Source: Candidatus Uhrbacteria bacterium (lineage in GTDB: Bacteria > Patescibacteriota > Patescibacteriia > UBA9934). From it: a stretch of DNA of 64,000 bases. Under the pieces are notes generated by a model, which searched no databases, had not been told where the DNA came from, and was given only the letters and a program-made list of their open reading frames with translations. The stretch spans positions 227,717 to 291,716 of the forward strand of contig CAWGHH010000001.1 of the NCBI GenBank assembly GCA_963822405.1. Reading direction: 5' to 3'. This document shows, one piece after another, positions 15,291 through 63,414 of the stretch (the first letter of the stretch is position 1; each line of letters begins with the position of its first letter). A program made the position numbers and the translations under genes.

Positions 15291-16085
15291 ATGCACGCCA
15301 AAAAATCATACGGTCAGCATTTTCTAAAAGACCAGTCGGTTATTGATAAAATAATTGCTGCGGCGGATATACAGCCCGGCGATATTGTGGTTGAAGTTGG
15401 TCCAGGAACTGGCGCGCTGACTAAGTCTCTTGCGCCAATTTCGTCGAAGCTCGTACTGATTGAGGCTGACGGTGAGTTGATTCCGAGCCTCACTGCTCAA
15501 TTTCCTTCCGCCGAAATCATCAAAGCCGACGCCGCGAAATTCGATTTCATGTCAGTTGCGAAAGGAGAGTGGATCTTCGTCTCAAATCTCCCCTATAACG
15601 CCGGCAACGCCATTTTGATGAACGTCCTCACTTCGAAAAATCCTCCGAAGCGTTCTGTAGTCATGTTACAAAAAGAGGTGGGGGAGCGAATGCTCTGGCT
15701 TGACCCAGGCGTTCTCTCTGTGGCTGTTCAGCTTTACGCACAGGTGGAAAAGGTGTGCATAGTTCCTCCTGGCGCGTTTTCTCCACCGCCGAAAGTTGAG
15801 TCGATTGTGCTCAGACTGATTCCATACCACCCGACCACTGACCCACTTCATGCCCTCCCCCCCGACCCCCTCCACTTCGTGGAGGGGGAGGAACTCGCTA
15901 AGCGAGTTCTAGCCATCGCGAAGGCTGGGTTTGCTAATAGACGGAAACAATTACATAAAAATCTGTCAGAGGCAGGACTTTTTACTAGTGAAGAAGTGAA
16001 ATCTAAACTTGTCGAGCTCGGACATTCGCCACTAGCACGAGCCGAAGAACTTTCATTAAAAGATTGGATTGCACTTTCCGAATAA
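15291..16085 (+). CDS. rsmA: 16S rRNA (adenine1518/1519-N6)-dimethyltransferase RsmA/KsgA
   Basis: KKSYGQHFLKDQSVIDKII...VVEVGPGTGALT and NLPYN motifs. The C-terminal part carries a GC-rich palindromic insert. Confidence 0.85.
   Translation: MHAKKSYGQHFLKDQSVIDKIIAAADIQPGDIVVEVGPGTGALTKSLAPISSKLVLIEADGELIPSLTAQFPSAEIIKADAAKFDFMSVAKGEWIFVSNLPYNAGNAILMNVLTSKNPPKRSVVMLQKEVGERMLWLDPGVLSVAVQLYAQVEKVCIVPPGAFSPPPKVESIVLRLIPYHPTTDPLHALPPDPLHFVEGEELAKRVLAIAKAGFANRRKQLHKNLSEAGLFTSEEVKSKLVELGHSPLARAEELSLKDWIALSE
15853..15890 (+). repeat. GC-rich palindromic element inside rsmA (CCCCCTCCAC-ttc-GTGGAGGGGG)
   Basis: Perfect 10-bp inverted repeat with a 3-nt loop, in frame, encoding PPDPLHFVEGE; related to the elements at 44107, 44998 and 63293. 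Confidence 0.5.
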
Positions 16086-16118
16086 AACCCAGAACCTTCC
16101 GTGTTATAATCCTGGGGT

Positions 16119-16808
16119 ATGGACGAAAAGGGTTTCGTTTTACAGGAGCCCCGGCCAGAGCTGGGGAAAGAACAAAAAGTTGGGTTATTTTTTGTTATAA
16201 TTTGTGGCGTAGGCGCTACAATTTTGGGCGTGTTCTATGTTTGGAATCACATGGCCTCGCCCTTCATCATCACTTACACGGGACCAAAGCTTTTAGTGGG
16301 GGATGAAGCCTCAGCAAATGCGATAGCTAAAGAAAAGGCTACAGATACAGATTTAGACGGTCTTTCAGATTACGATGAGAAGAATGTTTACGGCACCAGC
16401 CCGTATCTTTCCGACACAGATTCAGATGGCATTGATGACCGAACAGAAGTAACTACTGGTACAGATCCGCTTTGTAAACAAGGTTCCGTTTGTACGGCTG
16501 GTGTGGCGGATTCTGGCGCATTCATTCCAACCACAGGCGCCGGAACTTTCCTAAGTGACATTCCAAACCCAGGATCAGCCCCAGTCCCACCAAGTGGCGT
16601 GGGCGGGGACTCTACACTTTCCACAAGCGCTGTATCTGGAACTCTTACGGCTGCTGACATTGAAAGGCTGAAGTCCTTACCGATTGATCAAGTACGAACA
16701 ATCCTGATTTCCTCCGGCGCTGACCAAGCAACCGTCACTGCCCTAAGCGACGCCGATGTTCAAAAGGCTTACCTTGACCTCCTGGCCTCCTTGACCCCTA
16801 CCCAATAA
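16119..16808 (+). CDS. membrane-anchored protein with thrombospondin-type-3-like calcium-binding repeats
   Basis: N-terminal TM helix (VGLFFVIICGVGATILGVFYVW), then DTDLDGLSDYDE and DTDSDGIDDRTE (DxDxDGxxDxxE) repeats and a Gly/Ser/Pro-rich linker. Confidence 0.5.
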   Translation: MDEKGFVLQEPRPELGKEQKVGLFFVIICGVGATILGVFYVWNHMASPFIITYTGPKLLVGDEASANAIAKEKATDTDLDGLSDYDEKNVYGTSPYLSDTDSDGIDDRTEVTTGTDPLCKQGSVCTAGVADSGAFIPTTGAGTFLSDIPNPGSAPVPPSGVGGDSTLSTSAVSGTLTAADIERLKSLPIDQVRTILISSGADQATVTALSDADVQKAYLDLLASLTPTQ

Positions 16809-16811
16809 ATT

Positions 16812-25713: not shown

Positions 25714-25770
25714 GAGCCCCGTGGTGATGGGTTTGGCACCGCCAAACCCTTACGTCACGGGGCTTTTGCG
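25714..25770 (+). terminator. nested hairpin/terminator after the giant gene
   Basis: GAGCCCCGTG ... CACGGGGCT followed by TTTTG; the inner palindrome GGGTTTGGCaccGCCAAACCC occupies 25729-25749. Confidence 0.45.
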
Positions 25771-26490
25771 TTACGTGATATTTGGATGGGGATTGGGATT
25801 ATTCCGGTCACGTTCCCATTTGGCGGGGTTTTCGCGGATGTATTCCTGGATTCGTTTTAAATCACTCTTTCCTCTGATAATATGTTCGTAATAATCCCGT
25901 TGCCATAATTTTCCGATTCTTCCAACCTTTCCGAATCGATGACCTTTGGCGTATTCATTATAAAATGCGTTCGTGGTCATCGTCTTGAACCATTGGACGA
26001 AATCCGGAATTCCTTTAAACGCGCTCGCGTCCTCTCCATAACCGGCCGTCCCGGCCGCCGTTGGGGTCGACCCATGCGTCGACCCTTTCCCATCCTCCGA
26101 ACCGTTTTCGGATTTTAACGTCGACCTCTTTTCATTTCTTACCCGCGAAACGATTTCTATAATCCCGTGAAAATGATTGGGCATGGTTACGAATTCATGG
26201 ATACGAATTCCCGGAAATTTCTCCGGTAATTTATTCCAAAATTTATCCACGATCATTCCGTATTCATTTAATTCCATTATCGAAGGTGGATTTGTGCGAG
26301 GGTCGACGCATGGGTCGACCCCAACCTCGCGGATCACGCCGAACCATTCGATTCGGTCTTCGGTGACGGGATTAATAAAATAATATCCGGGTTGGGAGTA
26401 ATCGTATCCCTTTAAACGTAATTCCTTCCTACCGATTTCTTTCCATGAAAACATAAAACCCCATTTGTTTGGCCGATATGCGTCGGTCAT
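25771..26490 (-). CDS. IS200/IS605 family Y1 (HUH) transposase, RAYT-like
   Basis: HUH motif MPNHFHGIIEI and a C-terminal LWQRDYYEHIIR catalytic Tyr region. An insertion-like Gly/Ser-rich segment is present, and a 23-bp inverted repeat pair lies inside the coding sequence. Confidence 0.7.
   Translation of the reverse strand: MTDAYRPNKWGFMFSWKEIGRKELRLKGYDYSQPGYYFINPVTEDRIEWFGVIREVGVDPCVDPRTNPPSIMELNEYGMIVDKFWNKLPEKFPGIRIHEFVTMPNHFHGIIEIVSRVRNEKRSTLKSENGSEDGKGSTHGSTPTAAGTAGYGEDASAFKGIPDFVQWFKTMTTNAFYNEYAKGHRFGKVGRIGKLWQRDYYEHIIRGKSDLKRIQEYIRENPAKWERDRNNPNPHPNIT
26060..26082 (+). repeat. 23-bp palindromic repeat GGGGTCGACCCATGCGTCGACCC (left copy) inside the transposase gene
   Basis: The exact reverse complement is present at 26300-26322; each copy contains the self-complementary GGGTCGACCC. 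Confidence 0.55.
26300..26322 (+). repeat. 23-bp palindromic repeat (right copy, inverted)
   Basis: GGGTCGACGCATGGGTCGACCCC, the reverse complement of 26060-26082; the pair brackets the HUH core of the transposase ORF. Confidence 0.55.
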
Positions 26491-29506: not shown

Positions 29507-29531
29507 TGTGCCTCCTAGAGTTGTACTGATG

Positions 29532-39212: not shown

Positions 39213-40859
39213 ATGGCTATTGCTGACCTGCTCAAAATTCCACCGGTCCGTTCCTTTCTGTTGGGAGGCAAGAGCCTTGCTGAATTTAGGGTTGTCGCTA
39301 AAAACAATGATTTACCAGTTGAGCGCGCAGTTGAATTCCTTGATTTGTGTAATGCAGTAATTGATGGGGCGTTGCCAATGGCGGAGGTGCCGGGGATTAT
39401 TGCGCAGGCGTTTGGGAAGGATGAGGAGACGGCTAAAAAGATTTCGGCGGATATTTTTGGGTATCGAATTTTGCCACTTGAACCGTTTATTCCTGGGATT
39501 GGTGCGCAGATCACGGCTTGGGGCGGAAAATTGGAAGACTATCCAGCTAGACCGATTAGCAAAGAGCAAATTACCGCCTTTTCATGGGCGCAGAGGATGA
39601 ATGAGCTTGCTAATCTTGGATTTTCAGATGTGCTTGTGAAGCGTTTAGCCTTACTTCTTGATGGTCGAATTAGAGGCGAGAAAAATGCTGAAGCACTAAG
39701 AACATTTTTCGGTAGGCCGTTGACTATTGGTGGTTTAGCTTTATTGAAGGAAAAAGTTGAAGCTTTGTTGGCAGAAGTAGAGCGTGAGGCACCGTATATT
39801 GAAACAGTATCTGAAGAAGAATGGCAGAAGATAGAAATTGCAAAGGCTGAGGCGGAGGCTGCGGAAGAGGTGGAGGAATCGGCGGAGGGGTTTGGCGACG
39901 CCAAACCCGTACAACAGGAGGTGGCATTGTCGCAGGCTATAGAAATCGCCCCGCCAAAAGAATTAGCAGCAGAGGTGCCGTCAACGGTTGGTTTTGTGCC
40001 GGATAATTTAAAAGAAGTTGTTGATGAAGCTATAGATGCAGTAAAAGAAATACTTTTAGCAGAGAATATTTCTTTGGATAAATTCCGGTCACTAGCTCAG
40101 ATGAATATTAGAGGTGTTCGCGAACCAGGCCAGACGCGGGATATTCTTGAGAAAGAATACAAGTTAGCTGGCGCTGATTTGCGTGTAGTGTTGGATGCGC
40201 TAGCCGCCGGCAAGAAGAGATTTGATTTGGCGAAGGGGTTTGGCGGCGCCAAACCCGTACATAGCGAGGTGCCCGAAGGGCATAATCAGAATGAGTCCAA
40301 GGAATCGAGTGCCCTCGACCAAAAATTTGCGCAACTCACTAAGACCTTGCCGGAAGAATCCATTGAACCAATCATGCCGGGGTCAAGAGTATCGGCGGCG
40401 CGGGACACTCAATCACCCTCGACCAAGAAAATCATTCCTCTTAAGCCTAGGCCAGCCAAGGCTGAGTTAACTGTTGGTAGCGTTGCTCCAGGGGCTGTTG
40501 ATCGAAAGATGACTGACATAGTTCAGGCCTCGCGTTTAATGGGGCCAGTTGATCAGATTCAGAGCTTGTCGACAACTGAGTTTAGGCGCATGTCCAGTGA
40601 TCCCGCTGAGGCTGCGCGGAAAGTGGAAGATTTAATTATTGCGCTGTTAGCTACTGGCTATGAAGAGCGAGTGAGCGGTATTAATGCTTGGCGTAAGAGT
40701 CCTTTGAACCAGATGTATCTAGAGATTTCTGAAGAAGCACTAGGTGCCGGCATGACCATTCCGGATATTTGCAGCAAGCGCCGTAAAGAAAAAAGAGACT
40801 GTTTGAGCCCGGCGGAAATTAAAGCGATTATTGGACTTAATGCCAAGCTGAGATTTTAA
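39213..40859 (+). CDS. hypothetical acidic soluble protein (T4SS-cluster associated)
   Basis: 548 aa, no TM helices. Contains an internal ~44-bp direct repeat, each copy holding the GGGTTTGGCGnCGCCAAACCC palindrome (encoding GFGDAKPV and GFGGAKPV). Confidence 0.4.
   Translation: MAIADLLKIPPVRSFLLGGKSLAEFRVVAKNNDLPVERAVEFLDLCNAVIDGALPMAEVPGIIAQAFGKDEETAKKISADIFGYRILPLEPFIPGIGAQITAWGGKLEDYPARPISKEQITAFSWAQRMNELANLGFSDVLVKRLALLLDGRIRGEKNAEALRTFFGRPLTIGGLALLKEKVEALLAEVEREAPYIETVSEEEWQKIEIAKAEAEAAEEVEESAEGFGDAKPVQQEVALSQAIEIAPPKELAAEVPSTVGFVPDNLKEVVDEAIDAVKEILLAENISLDKFRSLAQMNIRGVREPGQTRDILEKEYKLAGADLRVVLDALAAGKKRFDLAKGFGGAKPVHSEVPEGHNQNESKESSALDQKFAQLTKTLPEESIEPIMPGSRVSAARDTQSPSTKKIIPLKPRPAKAELTVGSVAPGAVDRKMTDIVQASRLMGPVDQIQSLSTTEFRRMSSDPAEAARKVEDLIIALLATGYEERVSGINAWRKSPLNQMYLEISEEALGAGMTIPDICSKRRKEKRDCLSPAEIKAIIGLNAKLRF
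39888..39908 (+). repeat. palindrome GGGTTTGGCGaCGCCAAACCC (in frame inside CDS)
   Basis: Perfect 10-bp arms; the same core is found at 25729-25749 and 40236-40256. Confidence 0.5.
40236..40256 (+). repeat. palindrome GGGTTTGGCGgCGCCAAACCC (in frame inside CDS)
   Basis: Second intragenic copy, 348 bp downstream of the first. Confidence 0.5.
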
Positions 40860-43955: not shown

Positions 43956-44519
43956 ATGACCAGAAAAAGTGAAATCGGTTTAGCTGTTGGAGTTTTAGTC
44001 TTATTGATTATTGTTGTTATTGCATTCATGCTTCGTCAGCCGGTAAAGTCTGCCATCGTGAGCGACGCAAGCGTCGTGCCAATCACCACTTCGAATGGTA
44101 CGCAGCTTCCCCCTCCCGGGGGGATAGAGGGGGTCGTTCCCGCGCCCGTTGCCAATCCTCAAACCGCTACCATGATTTTCGTTGAACGGTTTTCGAGCTA
44201 TTCGTCAGAATCTAATTTTGCGAATGTGAAAGATGTGTTGTCACTTGTGACAGCTAGCTTATCTACTAAGATCCAGGCTGTAGCCACTGAACAACGTGCG
44301 AAGGGAATAGATCAAGCCTATTACGGGATATCGACTAAAGTTATTTCACAGAACGTGCAGGAACAGACGGACACAGTCGCTACTATCATAGTTAGCACCC
44401 AACGAGCTGAGTCGATCGGCAGTCCAAGTAACGCCACTGTTCGTTATCAAGATGTTACAGTTAAGCTCATAAAAGAAGGCGAAGCATGGAAAGTGGACGA
44501 TTTCACCTGGGCAATTTAG
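43956..44519 (+). CDS. membrane-anchored hypothetical protein (end of T4SS-like cluster)
   Basis: N-terminal TM anchor LAVGVLVLLIIVVIAFML. Carries a GC-rich palindromic insert encoding PPPGGIEGVVPAP. Confidence 0.4.
   Translation: MTRKSEIGLAVGVLVLLIIVVIAFMLRQPVKSAIVSDASVVPITTSNGTQLPPPGGIEGVVPAPVANPQTATMIFVERFSSYSSESNFANVKDVLSLVTASLSTKIQAVATEQRAKGIDQAYYGISTKVISQNVQEQTDTVATIIVSTQRAESIGSPSNATVRYQDVTVKLIKEGEAWKVDDFTWAI
44107..44135 (+). repeat. GC-rich palindromic element TTCCCCCTCCCGGGGGGATAGAGGGGGTC (in frame)
   Basis: CCCCCTC/GAGGGGG inverted termini; same family as 44998-45056 and (reverse complement) 63293-63322. Confidence 0.5.
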
Positions 44520-45175
44520 TCGAGCCGTTCTTAAACGCAATTTTTCCGCGTTATTGTGTTTCGTGTAAACAGGAAGGATCTTTACTCTGTTCTTCTTGTT
44601 TTGCAGATTTTGATGATCGAGTATTTAAGGTCGAGGACAGCCATTTAACAATGTTCGCCTACGGCAACCCGATTATTCGTGATCTGATCAAGGCGTATAA
44701 ATATGACTTTGATCATTCGGCCTTTAGAATCTTGCAGCGTCTGGCCGAGCCGGAGATGCAAATTTTGAAGTCTTTTATTGGTGAAGGAATTCTGACACCC
44801 ATCCCACTGGCTTCATTGCGATTCCGAGAGAGGGGATTTAACCAGGCCGAAGAAATTGGTTGATGGCTCGCGAAATCAACTGGTGCGGAGATCTCTGATC
44901 TTCTAAAAAGGGAAGAAACAAGAGGCCACCAGGCTGAGCGTACCGTGGAAGAACGCGAAACGGCCATGGAACGGAGTCCGTTCAATATGGTTGCAACTTC
45001 CCCCTCCCAGGGGCTCGCCCGTAGGGCGGTCTACGCCCGAGGGGATAGAGGGGGTCTCAGTGTGGTTCTCATCGACGACGTCTGGACCACCGGTTCAACC
45101 ATGAAGGCGGCCGAAAGAACCTTGAAAAACAGCGGAATTGAGAATGTGAAATATATAACTTTAGCCAAAGGTTAG
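44486..45175 (+). pseudogene. comFC: ComFC-like phosphoribosyltransferase (competence protein F family) interrupted by an in-frame TGA at 44861-44863
   Basis: N-terminal Cys4 zinc finger (CVSCKQEGSLLCSSC), RERGFNQAEEIG motif, and a PRTase motif VVLIDDVWTTGSTM downstream. Both parts are in the same frame, separated only by TGA (EEIG*WLAKSTG). Confidence 0.55.
44998..45056 (+). repeat. GC-rich palindromic element, long variant (TTCCCCCTCCC-31 bp-GGGGATAGAGGGGGTC), in frame in the comFC-like gene
   Basis: Shares both termini with 44107-44135 but carries an extra internal 31-bp segment with its own imperfect palindrome (CTCGCCCGTAGGGCGGTCTACGCCCGAG). Confidence 0.5.
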
Positions 45176-48176: not shown

Positions 48177-49937
48177 TTAACTCTTGCTCTCTCTGTGTAG
48201 TAACATGTCGATCGCTTCTTTGAGCGATCCCGCTGGGATAATTTCTCCTCCGTTTACAAAGAATATTTCGTCGGCATTCTCGATCGTGTTGAGTCGATGG
48301 GCGATGATGATGCGCGTGGTTTCTTTCGGGAGTGCGTTTAATGCTTCGCCGAGTAGTTGCTCGGTGACGGTGTCGATGTTCGCGGTGGCCTCGTCGAGGA
48401 TCAAGAGTTCTGGTTCACGCAAGATGGCGCGCATGAAGGCTAGGATTTGTTTTTGACCGGCTGAAAGTGAGCCGCCAGTGTTGCCGATTTCGGTTTGCAG
48501 ACCCTTATCGAACCGCGCCACAAGTTTTGTGAGATCCATTTTCTCGAGCTGTGTTGTTAGCTCTTCGTCAGATACATCTGCCAGCTTTTCGTTTCCGTAA
48601 ATAATGTTGTCGCGCACTGTTCCATGAAAGAGGAACGGATCCTGAAGAATGAAGCCAATTTTTTGCGTGCGTTCGGCGCTAGAGTAAGAGCGAATGTCAC
48701 GGCCGTTAAGTAAAACCGTTCCCGATGTCGGGTCATATAAACGCGCCGCGAGTGACGCGGTTGTGGTCTTGCCACCGCCCGTTGGACCAACTAACGCGTA
48801 GGTTTTGCCGGTGTTGAATATGAGGTTTACATTGTGGAGTACGGATTTGCCATCGGGATAGCTGAATTGTACGTCCCTGAATTCGAGCATTGCGGCTTGG
48901 TGTAGGGGCAAGGCGCCGCCTTGCCCGTACGCCGAGGCCGCAATCACGCCCATATCTGATGACAATCCCATGATGTTCTCAATCCTGTCACCGGCGGCCA
49001 GTGCGCCTTGGAAGGACGCCCAGAATGACGCGATTTGGCGCACGGGGTCATAAAAGCGCGAGATATAGCTGAGCGAACTGACGAGGAGTCCAATGGTCAG
49101 TTGGCCGGACATAATGAGCGAGATGCCGTACGTGATAGCAATAAGCTGCGCGGCATTTCCCATGAGGCTGTAAATTGGGGAGAAGACGGTGTTCGCAATG
49201 CCTGCGCCAACAGCCGCGCCATAGTTTTTAGTATTCGCCTCGGCTAAATGTTTGCGGAAATAATCCTGGCGGTTAAAGGCGACCACAACTTTGAAGTTTT
49301 CTAGGCTTTCTTGAACCGCGCCACTGAACGCGCCGGTCATTTGCATGCTTTTCGCGTTCTGCTTCTTGATGATGCCAGAAGTTACCTGCGTAATAATTAG
49401 TAGGGCGAGGGCAGGAATAAGCGTAGCTACGCCAAGTTTCGTGTTAATCGACACGAGCGAGATAGCTGCGCCAATAATCATGAAACCGTTGCCCACAAAT
49501 TGCATGACGGCTTGAGAGAAAAATTGGTTCAGTTTGTCCGTGTCGTTGTTGATGCGTGAGATGAGATCACCGGCTTTATTCTGGTTGAAGAACGCCACTG
49601 GGAGTTCTTCCAGCTTGCCGAAGATCGCATTGCGCAATCGGAAGAGTACACGTTGTCCAACGGCGCCCATGGTGGTGGTCTGCACATAACCGGCAACGAA
49701 CGCTCCGAGGTAGATGAGGGTGAGTTGTAGGGCGACAACGTTTAGACCAGCAAGGTCATGGTGAATGATGTGCGTATCGATAGCATGCCCAATGAGCACC
49801 GGTGCTAAAAGATTTAAGCCGGAGTTCAATAGAATGGCGACGAGCGCAATGAACATTGGGAGCTTTTCGTCCTTGATAAACGGCCAGAAGAACCGGAGTT
49901 TGGCTTTGCTCGGAGTAGTATTAAGACTGTAGTTCAT
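48177..49937 (-). CDS. ABC exporter, fused permease/ATP-binding protein (type I exporter half-transporter)
   Basis: 6-TM N-domain; Walker A GPTGGGKTT, signature LSAGQKQILAFMRA, Walker B LILDEATANID. Confidence 0.85.
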   Translation of the reverse strand: MNYSLNTTPSKAKLRFFWPFIKDEKLPMFIALVAILLNSGLNLLAPVLIGHAIDTHIIHHDLAGLNVVALQLTLIYLGAFVAGYVQTTTMGAVGQRVLFRLRNAIFGKLEELPVAFFNQNKAGDLISRINNDTDKLNQFFSQAVMQFVGNGFMIIGAAISLVSINTKLGVATLIPALALLIITQVTSGIIKKQNAKSMQMTGAFSGAVQESLENFKVVVAFNRQDYFRKHLAEANTKNYGAAVGAGIANTVFSPIYSLMGNAAQLIAITYGISLIMSGQLTIGLLVSSLSYISRFYDPVRQIASFWASFQGALAAGDRIENIMGLSSDMGVIAASAYGQGGALPLHQAAMLEFRDVQFSYPDGKSVLHNVNLIFNTGKTYALVGPTGGGKTTTASLAARLYDPTSGTVLLNGRDIRSYSSAERTQKIGFILQDPFLFHGTVRDNIIYGNEKLADVSDEELTTQLEKMDLTKLVARFDKGLQTEIGNTGGSLSAGQKQILAFMRAILREPELLILDEATANIDTVTEQLLGEALNALPKETTRIIIAHRLNTIENADEIFFVNGGEIIPAGSLKEAIDMLLHRESKS

Positions 49938-52683: not shown

Positions 52684-53238
52684 ATGAAGCGCGCTAAATT
52701 TCTCCAGACTTTTTTGAAGGACGTGTCGGTCGCGTCAGTAACGCCAACTTCCAGACGGGCAGTGAAAAAGATTTGTAGCAAGATCGATTTTGCTAAATCG
52801 GGAATGATTGTAGTTGAGTATGGGGCTGGTAGCGGTGTAGTGAGCGTTGAGCTATTGAAGCGGTTGCCGGCCGACGGGAAACTATTTTTGATCGAGCAGA
52901 ATACGGAGTTCGTTAATCACTTACGCGAGATACTTTTAGATCCTCGAGTAGTAATTTTCACTTCTTCGGCTGAACACGTTGAAACATTGCTGGCCGAGCA
53001 GGGAATCAATCATGCAGACGCAATTATTTCGAGCATTCCTTTTACATTTTTGCCACCGCTTGTCGCGAAATCGATTATCGAAAAATCGGCCAAGCTTTTG
53101 GGGTCAACCGGCGTCTTCGTGATGTTTCAATTCAATCCGCAGGCTAAGAAATTACTTAAGCAGTTTTTTGGAAAGATTGATTCTGGACTTGTCCTCTTGA
53201 ACATCCCGCCACTTTTAACTTGGAAAGCTAGAGCGTAA
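52684..53238 (+). CDS. class I SAM-dependent methyltransferase (small rRNA/lipid MTase-like)
   Basis: Motif I VVEYGAGSGVVS, acidic motif LFLIEQN. Confidence 0.55.
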   Translation: MKRAKFLQTFLKDVSVASVTPTSRRAVKKICSKIDFAKSGMIVVEYGAGSGVVSVELLKRLPADGKLFLIEQNTEFVNHLREILLDPRVVIFTSSAEHVETLLAEQGINHADAIISSIPFTFLPPLVAKSIIEKSAKLLGSTGVFVMFQFNPQAKKLLKQFFGKIDSGLVLLNIPPLLTWKARA

Positions 53239-53824
53239 CTGCGCCTCGACGAAGAACTGAAATTCGACCATCTTTTTCGTGTACCATGGTTGACGGTAAA
53301 TTGTGGGGGAGTGGACCGGCATTAATGATGGCGTCTGGTTTGAAGGCTTGTTTGCTAAAAGCCGCAATCAGACTCTCAAGGTCATAGAGTTCCGGTTCGC
53401 CGGAGATATTGGCACTTGTGGATACAATGGGGACGCCGAGTTGGTCGGCCAGAGCTTGAGCAATCGGGTGGCTTGATTGGCGCACCGAAATGGTCGAACC
53501 GGTCAGACATTGTTGGGCGATTTGATTGTTCTCTTTGACCGGCAACACAATGTTCAATGGTCCTGGCCAGTGTTTTTCGGCCAGCATCTTCAGTTGAGGT
53601 GACCAAGCGACATACTTCTCGCCGTAAGGGTCGGCGGACGGTAAAAGAATAGTTACACCTTTGTCCTCTGGCCTACCTTTGATCAAGAAAATTCTTTTTA
53701 CGGCTTCGGCATTCGTTGCGTCGCAGCCAATTCCGTAAGAGGTTTCGGTTGGATAAATAATCACTTTGCCGGTTTTGAGAAGTTCAACAGCTTCCTTGAT
53801 TTGGGTTGAAGAAAGGATTTTCAT
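53228..53824 (-). CDS. tsaC: L-threonylcarbamoyladenylate synthase TsaC/YrdC
   Basis: KVIIYPTETSYGIGCDATN...IFLIKGRP YrdC signature. Confidence 0.8.
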   Translation of the reverse strand: MKILSSTQIKEAVELLKTGKVIIYPTETSYGIGCDATNAEAVKRIFLIKGRPEDKGVTILLPSADPYGEKYVAWSPQLKMLAEKHWPGPLNIVLPVKENNQIAQQCLTGSTISVRQSSHPIAQALADQLGVPIVSTSANISGEPELYDLESLIAAFSKQAFKPDAIINAGPLPHNLPSTMVHEKDGRISVLRRGAVTL

Positions 53825-57229: not shown

Positions 57230-58922
57230 CTAGAACGCGAGCGTACCACCGTTGGCGGTAAGATGCTTTACATACATTCCGTCAATGTTGACACCCGTGT
57301 TCGTTGAATCAGACCAGTTCATGCCCTTGAGGAGGGGTTTGGATGGGACAAGTGGTTCGGCTGGGAGGTCGAAGCGAATGACGTCGTCATCAGCTGAGCT
57401 GGCACCCGTTGCGTCGAAGTAAAGGGCAAACGTGTGGCTAGTGCCCTTTGTAATTACTGATGCAGTTGGGAGATTGATCCTTATGAAAGTTACGTTACCA
57501 GACGAAACGCAGGCTACTCCATTGCTATCCATGAGCGTCCAGTTGGTGTCTGCAGTATCAAGTGAGGTGCTTGAGTCCTGGTATAGGTCATAGATGTCGA
57601 AGTCTGCAGCCACAGTGTTGCCGCAGAGGTTCCAGCCAGTATTTGCGTTATCATTTGAGCTCATCTTAAAAGTGAGTGCATTAAGAACTACATCATCGCC
57701 TGCACTGGCTGCTACGTTAAAGCGAATCACTTCATTTCGACCGACAACTGCAGAACCCGATGGGCTGGAAGATGCGATGGAAATTGTGGGGCGAGTTTCG
57801 CGGAGAGTGAACGTTCCTCCCTGATAACCAACCCCCATTTCAACTTCTGTGATTACATTTCCTGAGGTCATGCCAATAGCTTTGAAGACACCGCCAGGTA
57901 AGAAGCCGAATGCTTCGCTGAAGGTCATGCCTGAGGCTCCGTTTCCTGTATTGCTGATATCGGCAGTATCTACGAACACTTCAATCACGGCTGCATTTGA
58001 AGCGCCGGTAGGAACGAAAAGGGTCAGGCCAGTGAATTTGACGAGATGATTTGAGACCGCTCCGATGCTGGTAACGGTCGCTCCGGTTGCATCTTTGTAG
58101 GAGATCTTCACGGTTTTAACAGCTGCATCATCGCCAACATTTTTAATGGTCAACGTTTGAACTGTATACGGCTCGTTAGTAGCGGTGAGTTTGAATACGC
58201 CGGCTTTGACAGTGCTATTCGCAAGAGCGATGTTGTTCGGGGTATTTGGATCAACGGAAAGACTGAGATTGCCGTGATCTTTAACTGTTATAGCAACTGA
58301 TTGTGAGGCGTTAACTCCTGGATCTTTTGGTCTCGCCAATATAGATACGGGCACCGGGTAGTGCACTCCCTTGGCCGTTTTCTGCGGATACATCAGTGTC
58401 GCTGTTAACAGAAAAGGCATAAATATCTGGGCTTGATCCATCTGGAGGAACGTTCGCAAAAGTACAATGAAGTGAATAGCCTCTTCCGGCATTAGCAGGA
58501 ATGGTAAGGTCTAGGTTTTCAAAAATTGCCCGTCCCAAATTATCAACTAGCACTGGAGCGGTAAGCGAATGACCTTGAAGATCCCAAAGCTGACAATTCG
58601 AGATGTGATCAGCTGGAGTTACGTTATTTTCTACACTCGCAAAGGTTCCGTCAGAATCGCCGATGACGTTAAATATAAGGCGCTTAACTCTGACGGGTTT
58701 GTTTTGTGCTTGAAGACTTATCGCTAGAACAGGATCAAGTCCAGTGCCAACAACTACTGCATGAGAAATAGTTTGAGGAACAGTTTTAACAACTAGAATT
58801 GGCAAAGCATTATTCGCCGCAATCACAAACCCCGCCGCTGCGGCGAGTAAGCCGGTGCCCATGATGGCAATGCCGACTAGGGCACTGGTTGTTGTTTGAA
58901 CTGCTGTTGATGTTTGTTGCAT
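57230..58922 (-). pseudogene. surface-protein paralog B, frameshifted near 58340-58390
   Basis: The ORF 58311-58949 (N-terminal part, frame 2) and the ORF 57230-58492 (C-terminal part, frame 1) together give 573 codons, against 572 for intact paralog A. They are collinear with A on both sides of the overlap. Confidence 0.5.
58830..58922 (-). repeat. 93-bp exact repeat (5' end of paralog B coding region), identical to 60556-60648
   Basis: Encodes the shared MQQTSTAVQTTTSALVGIAIMGTGLLAAAAGFVIAA signal anchor. Confidence 0.7.
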
Positions 58923-58929
58923 ATTGTAT

Positions 58930-60648
58930 TTAGAAGACGAGCGTGCCACCGGTTATTGGCAGATTTTTGATGAAATTACCGTTTATGAGGTCTAGTCCAT
59001 TCACACCTTCGCGCCATTGGATAGTGTGTAGCAATGGGGAAAATTGGTGAGCTGGCTCGGAAACAATTTCAACTTTGATGGCGTCGTCCTGCGCTGAATC
59101 AGCGCCAGTTGAATCTACGATGAGTGAAAATGTATGAGAAGTTCCTGCTGAGATATTGCCATGAACAAGATTTACTAACGCATATCCCACAACTGCCTGT
59201 TCACGATCAGCCGGACCGCACTGATTACCATCAGCATTCATGATTATCCATGACGAATTGTTATTGCTAAGAACCTCTCCTGTTGTGAGGTCCTTAAGTT
59301 CCCACTTCGATGTGTCCCCGAGTCCGCTAACCGTGGAGGATCCGCACGACGCCCATGGGTGTTCAATGTGAGAGAAAGTATCGATCTTGAAAGTCATTTG
59401 TGACATGCTTAGATCACCAGCTGGATCTGCCGCTACATTGAACCGTAGGACTTCTGAACGGCCAGGAATTGCGGCTCCTGAAGGGGTTGAAGAGGATAGA
59501 GTGATGGTCGGGCGAGTCTTGCGGATTTCTAATCCGGCAGGGCTAGGAATATCACCGTTCATGTTCGCTTCGGTGATAACTTTGCCGGAAGTGTTGCCAC
59601 GCGCCATGAAGCTGCCTGGAGTTGTGAGATCAAGTGTCGCGCTCATGCCCCAGCCTGAACGAACAGGGCTGGTGGAGTTGATTGGTGCAGCTTCAAATGT
59701 TACATCGATCGGTAGGGCATTAGTCGCACCTGCTGGAACGTTAATAGCTAGTCCGGTGAAGTCGGCTACGCCGTTTACAAAAGCTACACCATTAGTCATG
59801 AGTCGGCCATCTGGAAGTTTGTAACCAAGGAAGGCGAAGTTTGCACCTCCAAGTTCACCGTATTGCTTGATGCGAAGTTTTTGGATGGTGAACGCTTCGT
59901 TAGTGCTTGAGAATTTGTATGTAGCAATCTTTGCTTGAGTACCAGCGATGATAATGTCGTCCTTCGGAGAGGTTGGGTCGATGCTGGCGGAAAGTTTTCC
60001 GCTACTTCTAACTGTCACGGTTACCGGTCCACCCATGTTTACACCGACATCCGCTGGACTTCCTACGTTGATTCGATCGGCGCCTAGGATATTGTTCGCG
60101 ATAGTCGCTCTGGCTACGACGTTGGCAGGATTGCCTCCAAGCTCGAACGCCATGATGTACTTATCGTTCGCAGAACTGCCTGCGAGGTCGCAGTTAATAG
60201 TGAACTGGGTAACCGTGTTAGCCGGCAATGTGAATGTGTCAGCAAAGGTTATTATGTTTCCGTTTTCAATGTATGACGGCCCGGCAAAGACAGAGCCGGT
60301 TTGCTTATTTTTGATTACGCACGAGGTTACTAAATCAGCGCCCGAAAGATCGTTTTCAATTGTATTAAAGTTGCCGTCGCTATCTGCCAGCACATCAAAA
60401 ACAAGTTTATTTATAGTTATGCCTTTATTTTTAGCTTCTAAGCTAAAGCCGAGCATTTGTTCATCTCGTGCACCTTGCACAGCACTATGTGCGGTTGGCT
60501 TTGGGGTTGCTCTGATATTCAGAATAGGACCAGTGTTACTAGCCGCGATTACGAATCCCGCCGCTGCGGCGAGTAAGCCGGTGCCCATGATGGCAATGCC
60601 GACTAGGGCACTGGTTGTTGTTTGAACTGCTGTTGATGTTTGTTGCAT
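58930..60648 (-). CDS. surface/cell-envelope protein paralog A (signal-anchored, beta-rich, 572 aa)
   Basis: N-terminal hydrophobic anchor, Thr/Ser/Asn/Gly-rich beta-type domains, conserved C-terminal ...TGGTLVF. A TATAAT sits 7 nt upstream of the ATG, with a G9 tract in the -35/spacer region. Confidence 0.55.
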   Translation of the reverse strand: MQQTSTAVQTTTSALVGIAIMGTGLLAAAAGFVIAASNTGPILNIRATPKPTAHSAVQGARDEQMLGFSLEAKNKGITINKLVFDVLADSDGNFNTIENDLSGADLVTSCVIKNKQTGSVFAGPSYIENGNIITFADTFTLPANTVTQFTINCDLAGSSANDKYIMAFELGGNPANVVARATIANNILGADRINVGSPADVGVNMGGPVTVTVRSSGKLSASIDPTSPKDDIIIAGTQAKIATYKFSSTNEAFTIQKLRIKQYGELGGANFAFLGYKLPDGRLMTNGVAFVNGVADFTGLAINVPAGATNALPIDVTFEAAPINSTSPVRSGWGMSATLDLTTPGSFMARGNTSGKVITEANMNGDIPSPAGLEIRKTRPTITLSSSTPSGAAIPGRSEVLRFNVAADPAGDLSMSQMTFKIDTFSHIEHPWASCGSSTVSGLGDTSKWELKDLTTGEVLSNNNSSWIIMNADGNQCGPADREQAVVGYALVNLVHGNISAGTSHTFSLIVDSTGADSAQDDAIKVEIVSEPAHQFSPLLHTIQWREGVNGLDLINGNFIKNLPITGGTLVF

Positions 60649-60655
60649 ATGGGTA

Positions 60656-60689: not shown

Positions 60690-60691
60690 TG

Positions 60692-61702: not shown

Positions 61703-61738
61703 AAGTTTGCCTAAGTATACATCGATTTTTTCCCGTCT

Positions 61739-62132
61739 TTGCGAGAGTCCCGTCCGCGGGAGCTCGAAGCAACCTCAAAAGAGCTCACTCGAAATATCAC
61801 GCCAAGTCGGATTTTCAGTCGCAATTAACAGCATTTTCTTGTTTCTCGACCCAGCCTTAATCTGCTTCTCTCTAGAAATCGCATCGTATGCTGTTGAAAA
61901 TACTTCAACATATACGAGTTTTATGCAGTTGTATTCCTTCGTAAATCCTTCGACGAGTTTATCTTTGTGTTCTTGGACTCTTCGAGAGATGTCGTTCGTG
62001 ACGCCTGTGTATAGGACAGAATTATGGGGATTTGTCATGATGTACACGTAGTAACTCCGCTCTTCCATATAAGAAATATCATTGGGGTTGCTTCGACCCA
62101 ACGGATTACCGTTGGTCTCGCAAAGACTGATA
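61739..62132 (+). repeat. structured repeat element, copy 2, with GIY-YIG ORF occupying its central loop
   Basis: Left arm 61739-61774 and right arm 62087-62132 match 13209-13296 (TTGCGAGRG.CCCGTCCGCGGGAGCYCGAAGCAACC ... TTGCTTCGACCCARACGRATTAC...GGTCTCGCAAAGACTGA). Confidence 0.45.
61775..62068 (-). CDS. GIY-YIG nuclease family protein (UPF0213-like)
   Basis: YYVYIMTNPHNSVLYTGVTNDISRRVQEH contains the GIY-YIG motif pair plus the conserved Arg and Glu. Confidence 0.7.
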   Translation of the reverse strand: MEERSYYVYIMTNPHNSVLYTGVTNDISRRVQEHKDKLVEGFTKEYNCIKLVYVEVFSTAYDAISREKQIKAGSRNKKMLLIATENPTWRDISSELF

Positions 62133-62136
62133 GGGG

Positions 62137-63414
62137 CTACTTCGCCAACTCTCTCACATGCTTAACATTCTTCGGTGTAAGCGAAGTTGCCATACCTAGC
62201 CTTTCGGCTTCTTTCAGTCGGCGTTCAAGGAAGGGGACGGAGCGGACTTCGCCGCCCAGGCCAAGTTCGCCGACGATGATTGTATCGGCGGGGAAGGTTT
62301 TGTCGTTGATCGCTGAAATAATTGCGGCAGCGACTGCGAGATCGGCGGCGTGTTCGTCGATTTTGATTCCGCCGACTACGTTTACGAAGACGTCCTGGTC
62401 GTAGACCTTGAGGCCGGCGCGTTTGGACACGATCGCGAGCACCATTTGTAACCTCGACGCGTCATAACCGGATGTGCGACGAACTGGATTTGGGAAGAAT
62501 GACTTGTCGACGAGTGCTTGAATTTCGACGAGGAACGGTCGCGATCCTTCCATGATGCAGGTGACGACAGAGCCAGGACCTGGCACGCGCTCTTTTAAGA
62601 ATCGAGCCGACGGGTTCTCGACCGCAATTAATCCCTTCTCTGTCATCTCGAAAACGCCGATTTCTTCGGTGCTACCAAAACGGTGCTTGTTCGCACGAAG
62701 AATTCTGTACGTCGAGTCTGGGTCGCCTTCAAGGGTAAGAAGGGTGTCGACCAGGTGCTCGAGCGTCTTTGGCCCCGCAATAGTTCCTTCTTTAGTCACT
62801 TGGCCAATAATTAAAACCGGCGTGTTTGTAGATTTTGCGAAGCTGATCAGCTCGGTTGTCGCCGCTCGCACCGCAGTTGGCGTTCCTGGAAATGCGTCAG
62901 CTTCTGCCACCATCATGGTCTGAATAGAATCGACGATTACGATGCTCGGTTTTGCTTCTCTCGCGGCCGCAATAATTGCGCCAACATCGACTGCATTCGA
63001 AAACAGGATCGTGCCCGGGTTAATTCCGAGGCGTTCAAAGCGTAGGCGAACCTGGCCTTCGGATTCTTCGCCAGATGCGTAATAGGCCGTTTGAAAACCC
63101 GCAATCTGGGCCACGATGGTCGACTTGCCGATTCCCGGTTCACCAGCGAGGAGCGTTACAGATCCTGGCACGATTCCTCCGCCAAGGACTCGATCGAGCT
63201 CGGAAAGCCCAGTTGGGATGGGGGAGGTGACGGTGGCGGTGGCTTCGCCTAATTTCAAAACAGGCGCAGGTTTTGCGTGGCTGGTGCCTTTTGACCCCCC
63301 TAGCCCCCCCGGGAGGGGGGAACCATCCTCGGCTAATGTTCCCCATTTTCCACACTCCGTGCATCGCCCAGACCATTTTAGAACCTGGGTATCGCAGTGA
63401 GAACAGCTGTACAT
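62137..63414 (-). CDS. radA: DNA repair protein RadA/Sms
   Basis: N-terminal C4 zinc finger (CSHCDTQ...CTECGKW), Walker A GEPGIGKST, KNRFG motif (RANKHRFG), and a Lon-protease-like C-domain. Carries a GC-rich palindromic insert after the zinc finger. Confidence 0.9.
   Translation of the reverse strand: MYSCSHCDTQVLKWSGRCTECGKWGTLAEDGSPLPGGLGGSKGTSHAKPAPVLKLGEATATVTSPIPTGLSELDRVLGGGIVPGSVTLLAGEPGIGKSTIVAQIAGFQTAYYASGEESEGQVRLRFERLGINPGTILFSNAVDVGAIIAAAREAKPSIVIVDSIQTMMVAEADAFPGTPTAVRAATTELISFAKSTNTPVLIIGQVTKEGTIAGPKTLEHLVDTLLTLEGDPDSTYRILRANKHRFGSTEEIGVFEMTEKGLIAVENPSARFLKERVPGPGSVVTCIMEGSRPFLVEIQALVDKSFFPNPVRRTSGYDASRLQMVLAIVSKRAGLKVYDQDVFVNVVGGIKIDEHAADLAVAAAIISAINDKTFPADTIIVGELGLGGEVRSVPFLERRLKEAERLGMATSLTPKNVKHVRELAK
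63293..63322 (-). repeat. GC-rich palindromic element in radA (reverse complement TTCCCCCCTCCCGGGGGGGCTAGGGGGGTC)
   Basis: Same family as 44107-44135, in gene-sense orientation; encodes the Pro/Gly-rich loop GSPLPGGLGGSKG. Confidence 0.5.

What the first reader, a model, noticed from the sequence alone, without database searches (positions are those of the whole stretch)
15853..63322. Family of short GC-rich palindromic elements inserted in frame into unrelated protein-coding genes
Four loci carry a related element: 15853-15890 in rsmA, 44107-44135 in a T4SS-associated gene, 44998-45056 in comFC, and 63293-63322 in radA. Its termini are CCCCCTC(C) and (G)GAGGGGG, with a core TTCCCCCTCCCGGGGGG-ATAG-AGGGGGTC; the comFC copy has an extra 31-bp internal segment. 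All copies sit inside ORFs without breaking the frame and add Pro/Gly-rich loops (PPPGGIEGV, PPDPLHFVEGE, GSPLPGGLGGSKG). Their GC content stands far above the local ~45% background, and they are always in the same orientation relative to the host gene. This resembles Rickettsia palindromic elements (RPEs), which proliferate inside genes, but has no obvious precedent in this type of genome. It implies an active or recently active non-autonomous mobile element, possibly mobilised by the RAYT-like transposase at 25771-26490.
Basis: seen in the sequence. Interest (0 to 1): 0.75.

Follow-up and report, generated by a model that had tools for sequence, protein, structure and literature searches.

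The report
Tiny palindromic repeats inside Patescibacteria genes
Three of the four flagged sites carry one real ~30-base GC-rich palindromic repeat that sits in frame in flexible linkers of unrelated genes of an ultrasmall (Patescibacteria/CPR) bacterium; this extends the known REP and Rickettsia-type in-gene repeats to a new phylum and a smaller size, but it is not a new kind of element.

Summary
Copies A (44107-44135), B (44998-45056) and C (63293-63322, minus strand) share a ~30-nt element, TTCCCCC(C)TCCC-G5-7-[A/C]TAG(A)GGGGGTC, far beyond chance. Further copies lie in two relatives: one orthologous to C, one at a new locus and antisense to its gene.

The rsmA site (D) is not the same family. 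It is a different double hairpin in the opposite orientation, and its 30 inserted bases are the reverse complement of its own flanks.

B is a composite. Its inner 28-mer is a separate element, found 100% identical in a relative's Sua5/YrdC gene as a clean 30-nt insertion.

The host is a Patescibacteria MAG. Its genes also carry other in-frame hairpin families, including canonical GTAG-tagged REPs, and it is these that sit beside the RAYT, not the CCCCCT family.

The link to the RAYT at 25771-26490 is therefore unsupported, and "always the same orientation" is wrong. In-gene REPs and RPEs are already documented in other phyla.

Most likely this is a REP/RPE-like miniature repeat family that persists only in permissive coding loops. 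How it is mobilised is unknown. No CCCCCT copy has a clean empty site.

Verdict: new variant of a known kind, moderate interest.

The parts
44107..44135 (+). Copy A of the CCCCCT family: TTCCCCCTCCCGGGGGGATAGAGGGGGTC. It lies in frame (+3, PPPGGIEGV) in the variable post-TM linker of ORF 43956-44519.
   Evidence: Orthologs L004 and L005 have unrelated sequence of similar length at this position.
44998..45056 (+). Copy B, a composite. The outer halves of the CCCCCT element (44998-45013 and 45041-45056) enclose a nested 28-mer. It reads in frame +2 in the ComFC loop just before the VVLIDDVWTTGST motif.
   Evidence: The same loop in L004, L005, L053 and L124 holds other hairpin elements.
45014..45041 (+). 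Nested independent 28-nt element CTCGCCCGTAGGGCGGTCTACGCCCGAG, bounded by G-runs (possible GG duplication). It accounts for the 30-nt length difference between B and A.
   Evidence: 100% identical at L001:19508-19535, where it forms a clean 30-nt/10-aa insertion in Sua5/YrdC that is absent from the window and L005 orthologs.
63293..63322 (-). Copy C: TTCCCCCCTCCCGGGGGGGCTAGGGGGGTC on the gene strand. It lies in frame (SPLPGGLGGS) in the RadA linker between the zinc ribbon and the ATPase domain.
   Evidence: Present in L002 with 4 nucleotide differences, all synonymous. Absent in L003 and L001.
15853..15909 (.). Site D in rsmA, not the same family. It holds two adjacent perfect hairpins, 15866-15888 (CCCCCTCCAC-ttc-GTGGAGGGGG) and 15891-15909 (GAACTCGC-taa-GCGAGTTC). 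The 30 nt inserted at 15873-15902 are the reverse complement of both flanks. Its architecture is reversed relative to A, B and C.
   Evidence: The insertion is shared with L042 and absent in L043 and in most RsmA orthologs. It lies in the interdomain linker when aligned to PDB 3r9x.
15291..16085 (+). Host gene rsmA/ksgA.
   Evidence: Pfam RrnaAD, E=4.5e-48; homologs.
43956..44519 (+). Host ORF of copy A: 187 aa, N-terminal TM helix, no Pfam hit. It lies directly downstream of the VirB4/TraG-like ATPase gene 42033-43952.
44486..45175 (+). Host gene comFC (ComF-type phosphoribosyltransferase). It is interrupted by an in-frame TGA at 44861-44863.
62137..63414 (-). Host gene radA (425 aa).
25771..26490 (-). 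RAYT-like Y1/HUH transposase (NHFH motif, RDYYEH). Its own ORF carries two in-frame GGGTCGAC hairpins, at 26060-26086 and 26299-26325.
   Evidence: (I2).
25729..25753 (-). GTAA-tagged REP-like hairpin GGGTTTGGC-nnn-GCCAAACCC, nested in the terminator immediately 3' of the RAYT gene. This is a different family showing the same in-gene phenomenon.
   Evidence: (D3).
39884..39912 (-). GTAC-tagged REP-like hairpin, in frame in the 548-aa protein gene of the T4SS cluster (site 1). At this same site L005 carries a CCCCCT-family copy and L004 carries yet another hairpin.
40232..40260 (-). Second GTAC-tagged REP-like hairpin in the same gene (site 2).
48902..48930 (+). GTAG-GGGCAAGGC-gcc-GCCTTGCCC-GTAC hairpin in the ABC-transporter TMD-NBD linker; the window protein is 7 aa (21 nt) longer here than the GCA_041659765.1 ortholog.

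Best explanation
A, B (outer part) and C are copies of one family of miniature, non-coding, GC-rich palindromic repeats about 29-31 nt long. The architecture is a pyrimidine arm, a purine arm, [A/C]TAG, then a second purine arm ending in TC.

They are REP/RPE-like selfish or near-neutral DNA that has been copied to several places in this Patescibacteria lineage. In a genome with almost no intergenic space, copies survive only in hypervariable, flexible protein linkers. There they are tolerated for three reasons:
- their length keeps the reading frame;
- five of the six frames are open;
- C-runs and G-runs translate to Pro, Gly, Ser or Leu in any frame.

**Shown:** the family relationship; dispersal to non-orthologous loci in at least two genomes; patchy presence among relatives; location in variable linkers; nesting of a second small element inside copy B; and far higher conservation of the elements than of surrounding DNA.

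**Inferred:** that copies arise by insertion of a single-stranded hairpin intermediate handled by an HUH-type (RAYT-like) or other unidentified enzyme. The RAYT in this window is probably not that enzyme, because its flanking and related hairpins belong to a separate GTAG-tagged family.

Site D is a different, locally templated double hairpin.
For: **Family and non-chance status:**

**Dispersal**
- L005:5223-5251 carries a copy 27/29 identical to A, in a different gene and antisense to it.
- L002 carries the ortholog of C.

**Patchy presence**
- Absent from radA of L003 and L001.
- Absent from 62 kb of GCA_041659765.1.

**Conservation well above background**
- The relatives' radA genes are only 79-80% identical in nucleotides, with about half of third codon positions changed.
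- Yet A and B match 27/27, and A and L005 match 27/29.
- The nested 28-mer is 28/28 identical between the window and L001 at non-homologous loci, with a clean 30-nt empty site in two orthologs.

**Generality of the phenomenon**
- Other hairpin families occupy the same loops in relatives.
- One of these has two copies per contig.
- Four independent indels each add a net 30 nt.
- Perfect hairpins are 7-fold enriched over shuffles.
- A Candidatus Uhrbacteria MAG (L038) has such elements in frame in ORFs whose sequences resemble AlaRS and MnmA (assigned by eye, no domain search).

**Tolerated positions:** variable-length linkers in RadA, ComFC and RsmA alignments and against a solved KsgA structure.

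**Coding compatibility:** frames.

**Independent assemblies** carry the same elements, so they are not assembly artefacts.

**Precedent:** intragenic REPs in PMC3733652 and RPEs in PMC10969869.
Against: - No CCCCCT copy has a clean empty site. In radA and the T4SS-associated ORF the element occupies a stretch no longer than the unrelated sequence in relatives. This fits replacement or rapid linker turnover as well as it fits insertion.
- Only 3 copies lie in 64 kb, and the rest of the genome could not be read. The genome is not in genome contigs.
- No terminal inverted repeats with a target-site duplication are visible.
- There is no GTAG or CGTC tag, and no adjacent transposase.
- Copies of one family cluster within 1 kb or less (A/B, and the pairs of other families in single genes). 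This is also what local conversion or copying would produce.
- Site D shows that at least some hairpins here are templated from their own flanks.
Confidence: 0.6

Rival explanations
1. There is no transposition. Hairpins arise in situ in hypervariable linkers by replication template switching or fold-back repair, and then spread to nearby sites by short-patch ectopic conversion.
For: - The rsmA insertion is the reverse complement of both of its flanks, giving two perfect hairpins.
- A and C replace sequence rather than add to it.
- Same-family copies cluster within 0.2-0.9 kb: A/B, the pair in the 548-aa gene, and the pair in the RAYT gene. The two sites in one gene carry the same family within a genome but different families between genomes.
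- Template switching is an accepted source of perfect inverted repeats (PMC6649704).
Against: - The identical 28-mer lies at non-homologous loci in two genomes whose radA genes share about 79% nucleotide identity, and its orthologous empty sites are clean.
- A, C and the L005 copy share about 29 nt with no flanking homology and lie up to 19 kb apart or in another genome.
- Local templating cannot produce the same sequence at unrelated sites.
Confidence: 0.2
2. The hairpins are selected cis-elements, placed in coding linkers because the genome lacks intergenic space. They could be mRNA stability or processing signals, pause signals, or a protein-binding site. Alternatively, the Pro/Gly peptides themselves are selected as linkers.
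For: - Hairpins recur at the same linker positions in orthologs even where the sequence differs.
- The C copy and its L002 ortholog differ at 4 nucleotides, all synonymous.
- Many related hairpins pair an SD-like purine arm with an anti-SD-like pyrimidine arm (the SD/anti-SD reading is my own inspection).
Against: - The element is absent from relatives with 92-93% identical RadA, and from most orthologs.
- It is used in different frames and in both orientations.
- The fold energy of A and C is no better than shuffled sequence.
- No Rfam family matches.
- It lies in unrelated genes with no common regulatory logic.
Confidence: 0.1
3. The element is a substrate of the RAYT at 25771-26490.
For: - The ORF is a bona fide Y1/HUH RAYT-like protein.
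- RAYT homologs in related contigs are flanked by cognate hairpins (L052 on both sides, L044).
- The CCCCCT element has a conserved xTAG next to a hairpin, a geometry like the GTAG tag of REPs.
Against: - No CCCCCT copy lies within 15 kb of the RAYT.
- The hairpin on the RAYT's 3' flank is GTAA-GGGTTTGGC..., a member of a separate GTAG/GTAC-tagged family with 4 loci in the window.
- The CCCCCT tag is [A/C/T]TAG lying between two arms, not an unpaired terminal GTAG.
- No RAYT homolog was found in the 40 kb held of the L005 genome, which does carry a copy.
Confidence: 0.1
4. The similarity is low-complexity chance, or the elements are assembly artefacts.
For: - The sequences are dominated by C- and G-runs.
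- A loose two-arm pattern hits 29 unrelated genomes.
Against: - Exact 11+16-nt blocks are shared by A and B, with zero occurrences in shuffles.
- Only 6 hits appear in 1.08 Mb of related DNA, five of them in this lineage.
- The same elements appear in independent Logan, JGI and NCBI assemblies.
Confidence: 0.03

Closest known systems
Rickettsia palindromic elements (RPEs; Ogata et al. 2000, 2002; reviewed in PMC10969869)
   Same: Both are palindromic repeats dispersed in frame in unrelated housekeeping genes of a small-genome bacterium. Both are tolerated in loops and are lineage-specific.
   Different: - RPEs are about 100-150 bp and each family encodes a conserved peptide in one frame. This element is about 30 nt and is used in at least two sense frames and antisense.
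- There is no sequence similarity, and no CGTC tag.
- The phylum is different.
GTAG-/CGTC-tagged REPs, including intragenic REPs, and REPIN-RAYT systems (PMC3733652, PMC3116915)
   Same: - Both are 20-40-nt stem-loops with a short conserved tetranucleotide next to the stem, in several families per genome.
- Intragenic in-frame units are documented, often in repair genes.
- A RAYT is present in the window, with its own GTAG-type hairpins that are also in frame in genes.
   Different: - The CCCCCT family has [A/C]TAG between two purine arms rather than an unpaired terminal GTAG or CGTC.
- It is not next to the RAYT and is not arranged as inverted doublets.
- All copies seen are intragenic.
- Copy number is unknown.
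Yeast mitochondrial GC clusters such as GC42 (PMC4478555)
   Same: Both are about 30-40-bp GC-rich hairpin elements standing out from a lower-GC background. Both are mobile on population timescales, with a 2-nt target duplication (AG there, possibly GG for the nested 28-mer here), and both merge or nest.
   Different: GC clusters belong to an organelle genome and are mostly intergenic. There is no sequence relationship, and their mechanism is also unknown.
Cyanobacterial small dispersed repeats (SDR, 21-27 nt; Elhai et al. 2008). Recalled from memory and cited in PMC3116915; the paper was not readable here.
   Same: Both are very small (<30 nt) dispersed repeats embedded in hairpins and nested in other repeats.
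   Different: Not tested. SDRs are mainly intergenic and have a different sequence.
Coding palindromes of Nematomorpha mitochondria (PMC6649704)
   Same: Both are perfect inverted repeats inside protein-coding sequence. Template switching is proposed there, which is relevant to site D.
   Different: Those are long (up to 284 bp), with both arms coding, and they are not dispersed repeat families.

Membership tests
Rickettsia palindromic elements (RPE) | Palindromic repeat of about 100-150 bp | tested here: not met
   Copies are 29-31 nt; 59 nt only because of a nested second element.
Rickettsia palindromic elements (RPE) | In-frame insertion in unrelated protein-coding genes | tested here: met
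   A, B and C lie in frame in three unrelated genes.
Rickettsia palindromic elements (RPE) | Family-specific conserved peptide read in one frame | tested here: not met
   A is read in +3, B and C in +2, and the L005 copy antisense, so the peptides differ.
Rickettsia palindromic elements (RPE) | CGTC (or TGTC/CCTC) tag at one end, as for RPE-4 and RPE-6 in PMC3733652 | tested here: not met
   Element ends are TTCCCCC... and ...GGGGGTC. No terminal CGTC is present (by inspection).
GTAG REP / REPIN-RAYT | Short (20-40 nt) imperfect palindrome, repeated in the genome | tested here: met
   Three copies in the window plus two in relatives. Genome-wide copy number is not testable here.
GTAG REP / REPIN-RAYT | Unpaired GTAG-like tetranucleotide at one end of the stem-loop | tested here: not met
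   - The CCCCCT family has ATAG or CTAG between the purine arms and no terminal GTAG.
- In contrast, the GGGNNNGGC-nnn-GCCNNNCCC hairpins in the window carry GTAG, GTAC or GTAA.
GTAG REP / REPIN-RAYT | Copies flank the cognate RAYT gene | tested here: not met
   - Neither flank of the RAYT carries a CCCCCT element.
- The 3' flank carries the GTAA-GGGTTTGGC hairpin.
- Other RAYTs elsewhere in the genome could not be examined.
GTAG REP / REPIN-RAYT | Predominantly extragenic, often as inverted doublets (REPINs) | tested here: not met
   All copies are intragenic singletons.
MITE | 70-300 bp with 15-30-bp terminal inverted repeats and a target-site duplication | tested here: not met
   - Size is about 30 nt, and no TSD is visible for A, B or C.
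- The nested 28-mer has imperfect 11-nt TIRs (CTCGNNCGTAG/CTACGNNCGAG) and a possible GG duplication; this is inconclusive.
Mobile element in general | Occupied versus precise empty site in close relatives | tested here: inconclusive
   - Met for the nested 28-mer (L001 versus the window and L005).
- Met for other hairpin families.
- Not met for the CCCCCT copies themselves, where relatives have unrelated sequence of similar length.

The most novel reading that the evidence does not exclude
Patescibacteria may harbour a previously undescribed, widespread superfamily of roughly 30-nt elements with the architecture pyrimidine arm, loop, purine arm, xTAG, purine arm.
- They colonise coding linkers in 30-nt steps.
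- They nest in one another and replace one another at hot spots.
- They stay nearly identical between genomes whose synonymous sites are saturated.

This would imply an active, dedicated mobilisation system distinct from the known GTAG-REP/RAYT pairing, and a steady source of new protein linker sequence in ultrasmall bacteria.
Probability: 0.3. Interest if true: 0.75.

Novelty: new variant of a known kind. Interest (0 to 1): 0.55.

Why it matters
- **Extends a known phenomenon.** If confirmed genome-wide, in-gene palindromic repeats, so far known mainly from Rickettsia and a few REP-rich proteobacteria and PVC bacteria, would extend to the Candidate Phyla Radiation, at a much smaller element size.
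- **Shows where selfish DNA can survive.** In genomes with almost no intergenic space, the only available niche appears to be flexible protein loops.
- **Practical consequences.** These repeats inflate and diversify linker regions of core proteins (RadA, KsgA, ComF, ABC transporters; probably AlaRS and MnmA). They can mislead alignments and domain boundaries. They also offer strain-level markers.
- **A tractable comparison.** A canonical GTAG-REP/RAYT pair and a non-GTAG family coexist in one small genome, which makes it a good system for asking what mobilises untagged hairpin repeats.

Tried and rejected
- **Whole-genome census.** The window's genome is not in genome contigs. The source accession was not recoverable.
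- **Viral origin.** No exact or near-exact copy of the CCCCCT element or of the nested 28-mer exists in IMG/VR.
- **Known RNA families.** Rfam matched nothing on the elements, at gathering or permissive thresholds.
- **Hairpin stability as evidence.** A and C fold no better than shuffled sequence. Only D and the perfect hairpins stand out.
- **Distant loci as empty sites.** The 80 metagenome loci found with the VirB4-like protein were mostly too distant (≤37% identity for the 548-aa protein) to serve as empty-site controls for A and B. They were still useful for showing that the phenomenon is general.
- **Other transposases.** None was found in the GC-rich 26-36 kb region.
- **Alternative genetic code.** I considered reading TGA as a sense codon because of the in-frame TGA in comFC. 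I rejected it: all other long ORFs, including one of 2963 aa, are intact under code 11, and orthologs have Arg, Ser or Lys at that codon.
- **Other interpretations considered and dropped.** CRISPR or Cas1-type spacer integration, DGR targets and DNA-uptake sequences do not fit: there are no flanking direct repeats, no template repeat, and the density is too low.
- **Elhai 2008 SDR paper.** It could not be read.

Full report
**1. What the window is**

RadA, RsmA and ComF homolog searches place the window in Patescibacteria (CPR). The named hits are mostly labelled "Patescibacteria group bacterium", and a few "Candidatus Uhrbacteria". The RsmA protein and the ComF N-terminal fragment are 100% identical to proteins on a 366-kb NCBI/ENA contig, but that record could not be fetched.

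Pfam confirms the host genes:
- RsmA (RrnaAD);
- a ComF-type phosphoribosyltransferase;
- RadA;
- an unannotated 187-aa ORF directly after a VirB4/TraG-like ATPase;
- a Y1/HUH (IS200-like, RAYT-type) protein at 25771-26490.

I obtained DNA from close relatives:
- GCA_041659765.1: L001, L004 and L043, 62 kb in total;
- a JGI contig: L005 and L042, 40 kb;
- L002 (Logan) and L003 (JGI).

These relatives are not very close. radA is only 79-80% identical in nucleotides, with about half of third codon positions changed.

**2. Checking the observation**

The four sequences are as described.

A (44107-44135) and B (44998-45056) share TTCCCCCTCCC and the exact 16-mer GGGGATAGAGGGGGTC. The 16-mer occurs twice in the window and never in 100 dinucleotide shuffles. 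CCCCCTCCC occurs three times against 0.38 expected. C is the same element on the minus strand, with homopolymer length changes and CTAG in place of ATAGA.

Two wider searches agree on the membership:
- A strict pattern over 1.08 Mb of related Patescibacteria DNA finds A, B and C, the L002 ortholog of C, a new copy at L005:5223-5251, and one marginal hit.
- An nhmmer profile of the five copies gives the same members. It scores site D only at E=65, and on the opposite strand.

So three loci, not four, belong to one family.

Reading frames differ between copies: A +3, B and C +2. The L005 copy is antisense to its host gene. The claim of constant orientation therefore fails. Five of the six frames of A are open, and all translate to Pro, Gly, Ser or Leu-rich peptides.

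comFC carries an in-frame TGA 135 nt upstream of B.

**3. Copy B is a composite**

B is 30 nt longer than A. Its inner 28-mer, CTCGCCCGTAGGGCGGTCTACGCCCGAG, is 100% identical to L001:19508-19535.

In L001 it forms a clean 30-nt, 10-aa insertion (GSPVGRSTPE) in the Sua5/YrdC gene. The window and L005 orthologs show the precise empty site ACC|GGTTCG. Both occurrences are bounded by G-runs, which is compatible with a GG duplication.

A 28/28 match between genomes with about 79% background identity, at non-homologous loci and in different frames, is the clearest evidence here that very small elements move, or are copied, in this lineage.

**4. Ortholog comparisons for the CCCCCT copies**

- **radA.** The element is present in the window and in L002, with four differences, all synonymous. 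It is absent in L003 and L001, where an unrelated stretch of similar length fills the linker between the zinc ribbon and the ATPase domain.
- **T4SS-associated ORF.** L004 and L005 have unrelated sequence of similar length.
- **comFC.** The loop before the VVLIDDVWTTGST motif holds a different hairpin element in each relative:
  - L004: CTCCTCCTT-tcc-AAGGAGGAG-TCG-GAGGAGGT. Its peptide LLLSKEESEEV also appears in RsmA of other relatives.
  - L005: CCCCCTTCTT-acg-AAGAAGGGGG-CTAG-GGGGG.
  - L053, L054 and L105: CTCCCCCTT-acg-AAGGGGGAG-TTG-GAGGGGGT, a net +30 nt compared with L056, with a second copy elsewhere on the same contigs.
  - L124: CCCCTCCTT-ccc-AAGGAGGGG-TAG-GGGGTGG.

The family is therefore lineage-specific and sits in hypervariable linkers. 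However, no CCCCCT copy has a clean empty site, so insertion is inferred for them rather than shown.

**5. Site D (rsmA)**

Compared with L043 and most orthologs, the window and L042 carry a 30-nt insertion at 15873-15902, CACTTCGTGGAGGGGGAGGAACTCGCTAAG. It lies between the ancestral ACCCCCTC and CGAGTT.

The inserted DNA contains the reverse complement of both flanks. This creates two adjacent perfect hairpins, at 15866-15888 and 15891-15909. A fixed-sequence mobile element would not do this. It points instead to local templating, by template switching or fold-back synthesis, or to later palindrome "correction". I leave the exact process unexplained.

The site lies in the interdomain linker of KsgA when aligned to a solved structure.

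**6. The wider phenomenon, and the RAYT**

Perfect hairpins (stem ≥9, loop 3-6) are enriched in the window: 7 observed against 1.0±1.0 in shuffles. Most lie inside long ORFs.

A second family has the form GTA[G/C/A]-GGGNNNGGC-nnn-GCCNNNCCC. It has four loci in the window against none in shuffles:
- two in frame in the 548-aa protein gene of the T4SS cluster;
- one in an ABC-transporter linker, where the window protein is 7 aa (21 nt) longer than the GCA_041659765.1 ortholog;
- one nested in the terminator immediately 3' of the RAYT gene.

These meet the published definition of GTAG REPs: a tag, a 5-13-bp stem, a 2-3-nt loop, and association with a RAYT (PMC3733652). RAYT homologs in related contigs are likewise flanked by cognate hairpins (L052 on both sides, and L044).

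The RAYT ORF itself carries two in-frame GGGTCGAC hairpins as a perfect 27-nt inverted pair around the HUH motif. The GCA_041659765.1 ortholog has GTAG/GTAC-GGGCATGGC hairpins at the equivalent sites.

At site 1 of the 548-aa gene, three genomes carry three different elements: a GTAC REP in the window, GCGGGGTT-tta-AACCCCGC in L004, and a CCCCCT copy in L005. Within a genome, the two sites of a gene tend to carry the same family.

In a Candidatus Uhrbacteria MAG (L038), two ORFs whose sequences resemble AlaRS and MnmA carry PPLxLRGG-type hairpin inserts. I assigned those two names by eye and ran no domain search on them.

**7. Mechanism**

Best supported: A, B and C belong to a REP/RPE-like family of miniature palindromic repeats that has been copied to several permissive coding linkers. 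Survival is filtered by frame, by open reading frames and by benign Pro/Gly translation.

The conservation of the elements (27/27, 27/29 and 28/28) against a saturated synonymous background argues for either recent copying or strong sequence constraint from a recognising enzyme.

The mobilising activity is unknown. By analogy with REPs, an HUH enzyme acting on a single-stranded hairpin next to the conserved xTAG is plausible. The window's RAYT is linked to the GTAG family, however, not to this one.

Two features keep a template-switch or conversion model alive as the main rival. Same-family copies cluster locally, and A and C look like replacements rather than additions. Chance and assembly artefact are excluded for A, B and C.

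**8. Comparison with known systems, and novelty**

- RPEs share the in-frame lifestyle. They are about five times longer and have a fixed coding frame (PMC10969869).
- Intragenic GTAG and CGTC REPs are documented in Opitutus, Thauera, Rickettsia and others, often in repair genes (PMC3733652). The concept is therefore not new.
- The CCCCCT family lacks both tags, is not adjacent to the RAYT and is not arranged as doublets, so I do not file it as a GTAG or CGTC REP.
- Yeast mitochondrial GC clusters are a close functional analogue: about 40-bp GC hairpins with a 2-nt target duplication that merge with one another (PMC4478555).
- My literature searches found no report of such elements in Patescibacteria.

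**Verdict:** a real family, and a new variant of a known kind in a new phylum, with several unusual details: size, nesting, net +30-nt steps and hot-spot replacement. Interest is moderate.

Noticed in passing
window 44861-44863: comFC has an in-frame TGA (…EEIG*WLAKSTG…). Orthologs have Arg, Ser or Lys at this codon, and the N-terminal 125-aa fragment is called as a separate protein in public records. It is probably a nonsense mutation or pseudogene rather than recoding, because other long ORFs are intact under code 11.
   Followed up: partly
window 39884-39912, 40232-40260, 48902-48930, 25729-25753: Canonical GTAG/GTAC/GTAA-tagged REP-like hairpins (GGGNNNGGC-nnn-GCCNNNCCC). Three are in frame inside genes: the 548-aa T4SS-cluster protein (twice) and an ABC-transporter linker. 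One is nested in the terminator next to the RAYT gene. There are four loci against none in shuffles.
   Followed up: yes
window 26060-26086 and 26299-26325 (inside RAYT ORF 25771-26490): A perfect 27-nt inverted pair of GGGTCGAC hairpins lies in frame on either side of the HUH motif of the RAYT itself. The ortholog in GCA_041659765.1 (L043:20500-20520 and 20648-20668) has GTAG/GTAC-GGGCATGGC hairpins at the equivalent positions.
   Followed up: partly
L001:19506-19535 versus window 53228-53824 (Sua5/YrdC): A clean 30-nt insertion of the same 28-mer that is nested in copy B. The empty site is present in the window and in L005, and G-runs lie at both ends.
   Followed up: yes
window 15873-15902: The 30 nt inserted in rsmA are the reverse complement of both immediate flanks, producing two back-to-back perfect hairpins. 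The way they formed is unexplained; template switching or fold-back synthesis is possible.
   Followed up: partly
several loci (window B versus A; window rsmA; L005:11445-11489 ABC ATPase; L053 versus L056 comFC): Four independent hairpin-element gains each add a net 30 nt exactly. This suggests a preferred unit size of about 28-30 nt.
   Followed up: partly
window 39213-40859 versus L004:4784-6391, L005:4546-6159 and L059:6592-8827: This T4SS-cluster protein gene is a hot spot. Two linker sites carry the same hairpin family within a genome but different families between genomes. L059 has three copies of yet another hairpin (ACGGGCAAAC-gcacgg-GTTTGCCCGT).
   Followed up: partly
L038:4035-7385 (Candidatus Uhrbacteria MAG): Two ORFs whose sequences resemble AlaRS and MnmA (assigned by eye, no domain search) carry one and four in-frame CCCCCTCTTA-nnn-TAAGAGGGGG-type hairpins, giving peptides such as PPLNLRGG, PPLILRGG and PPLKLRGG.
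   Followed up: no
window 13206-13296, 61735-61775 and 62083-62130; also L002:6272-6307 and L005:6195-6220: Another repeat family (GTCATTGCGAGG…GAAGCAACC / GGTTGCTTCG…CTCGCAAAGAC). Next to radA its two halves bracket about 300 bp, where the relative L001 has a small GIY-YIG gene. It may be a selfish GIY-YIG cassette with terminal repeats.
   Followed up: no
window 28190-30851: Two adjacent, partly overlapping class-II aaRS paralogs (tRNA-synt_2 plus an OB fold) lie in a locally GC-rich stretch (0.53-0.57 against about 0.47). This may be a foreign segment.
   Followed up: no
window 58795-58924 and 60521-60650: A 130-nt direct repeat (91% identity) 1.7 kb apart. A second repeat pair lies at 49426-49484 and 51167-51225 in the tandem ABC-transporter genes. 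Both are probably paralog homology.
   Followed up: no
L025, L027 (Bacteroidaceae), L015, L029, L017: The architecture of pyrimidine arm, loop, purine arm, (T/C)TAG, AGGGGGTC also turns up in non-CPR genomes, for example …GAGGGGGAGTTAGAGGGGGTC. The superfamily may extend far beyond Patescibacteria.
   Followed up: no
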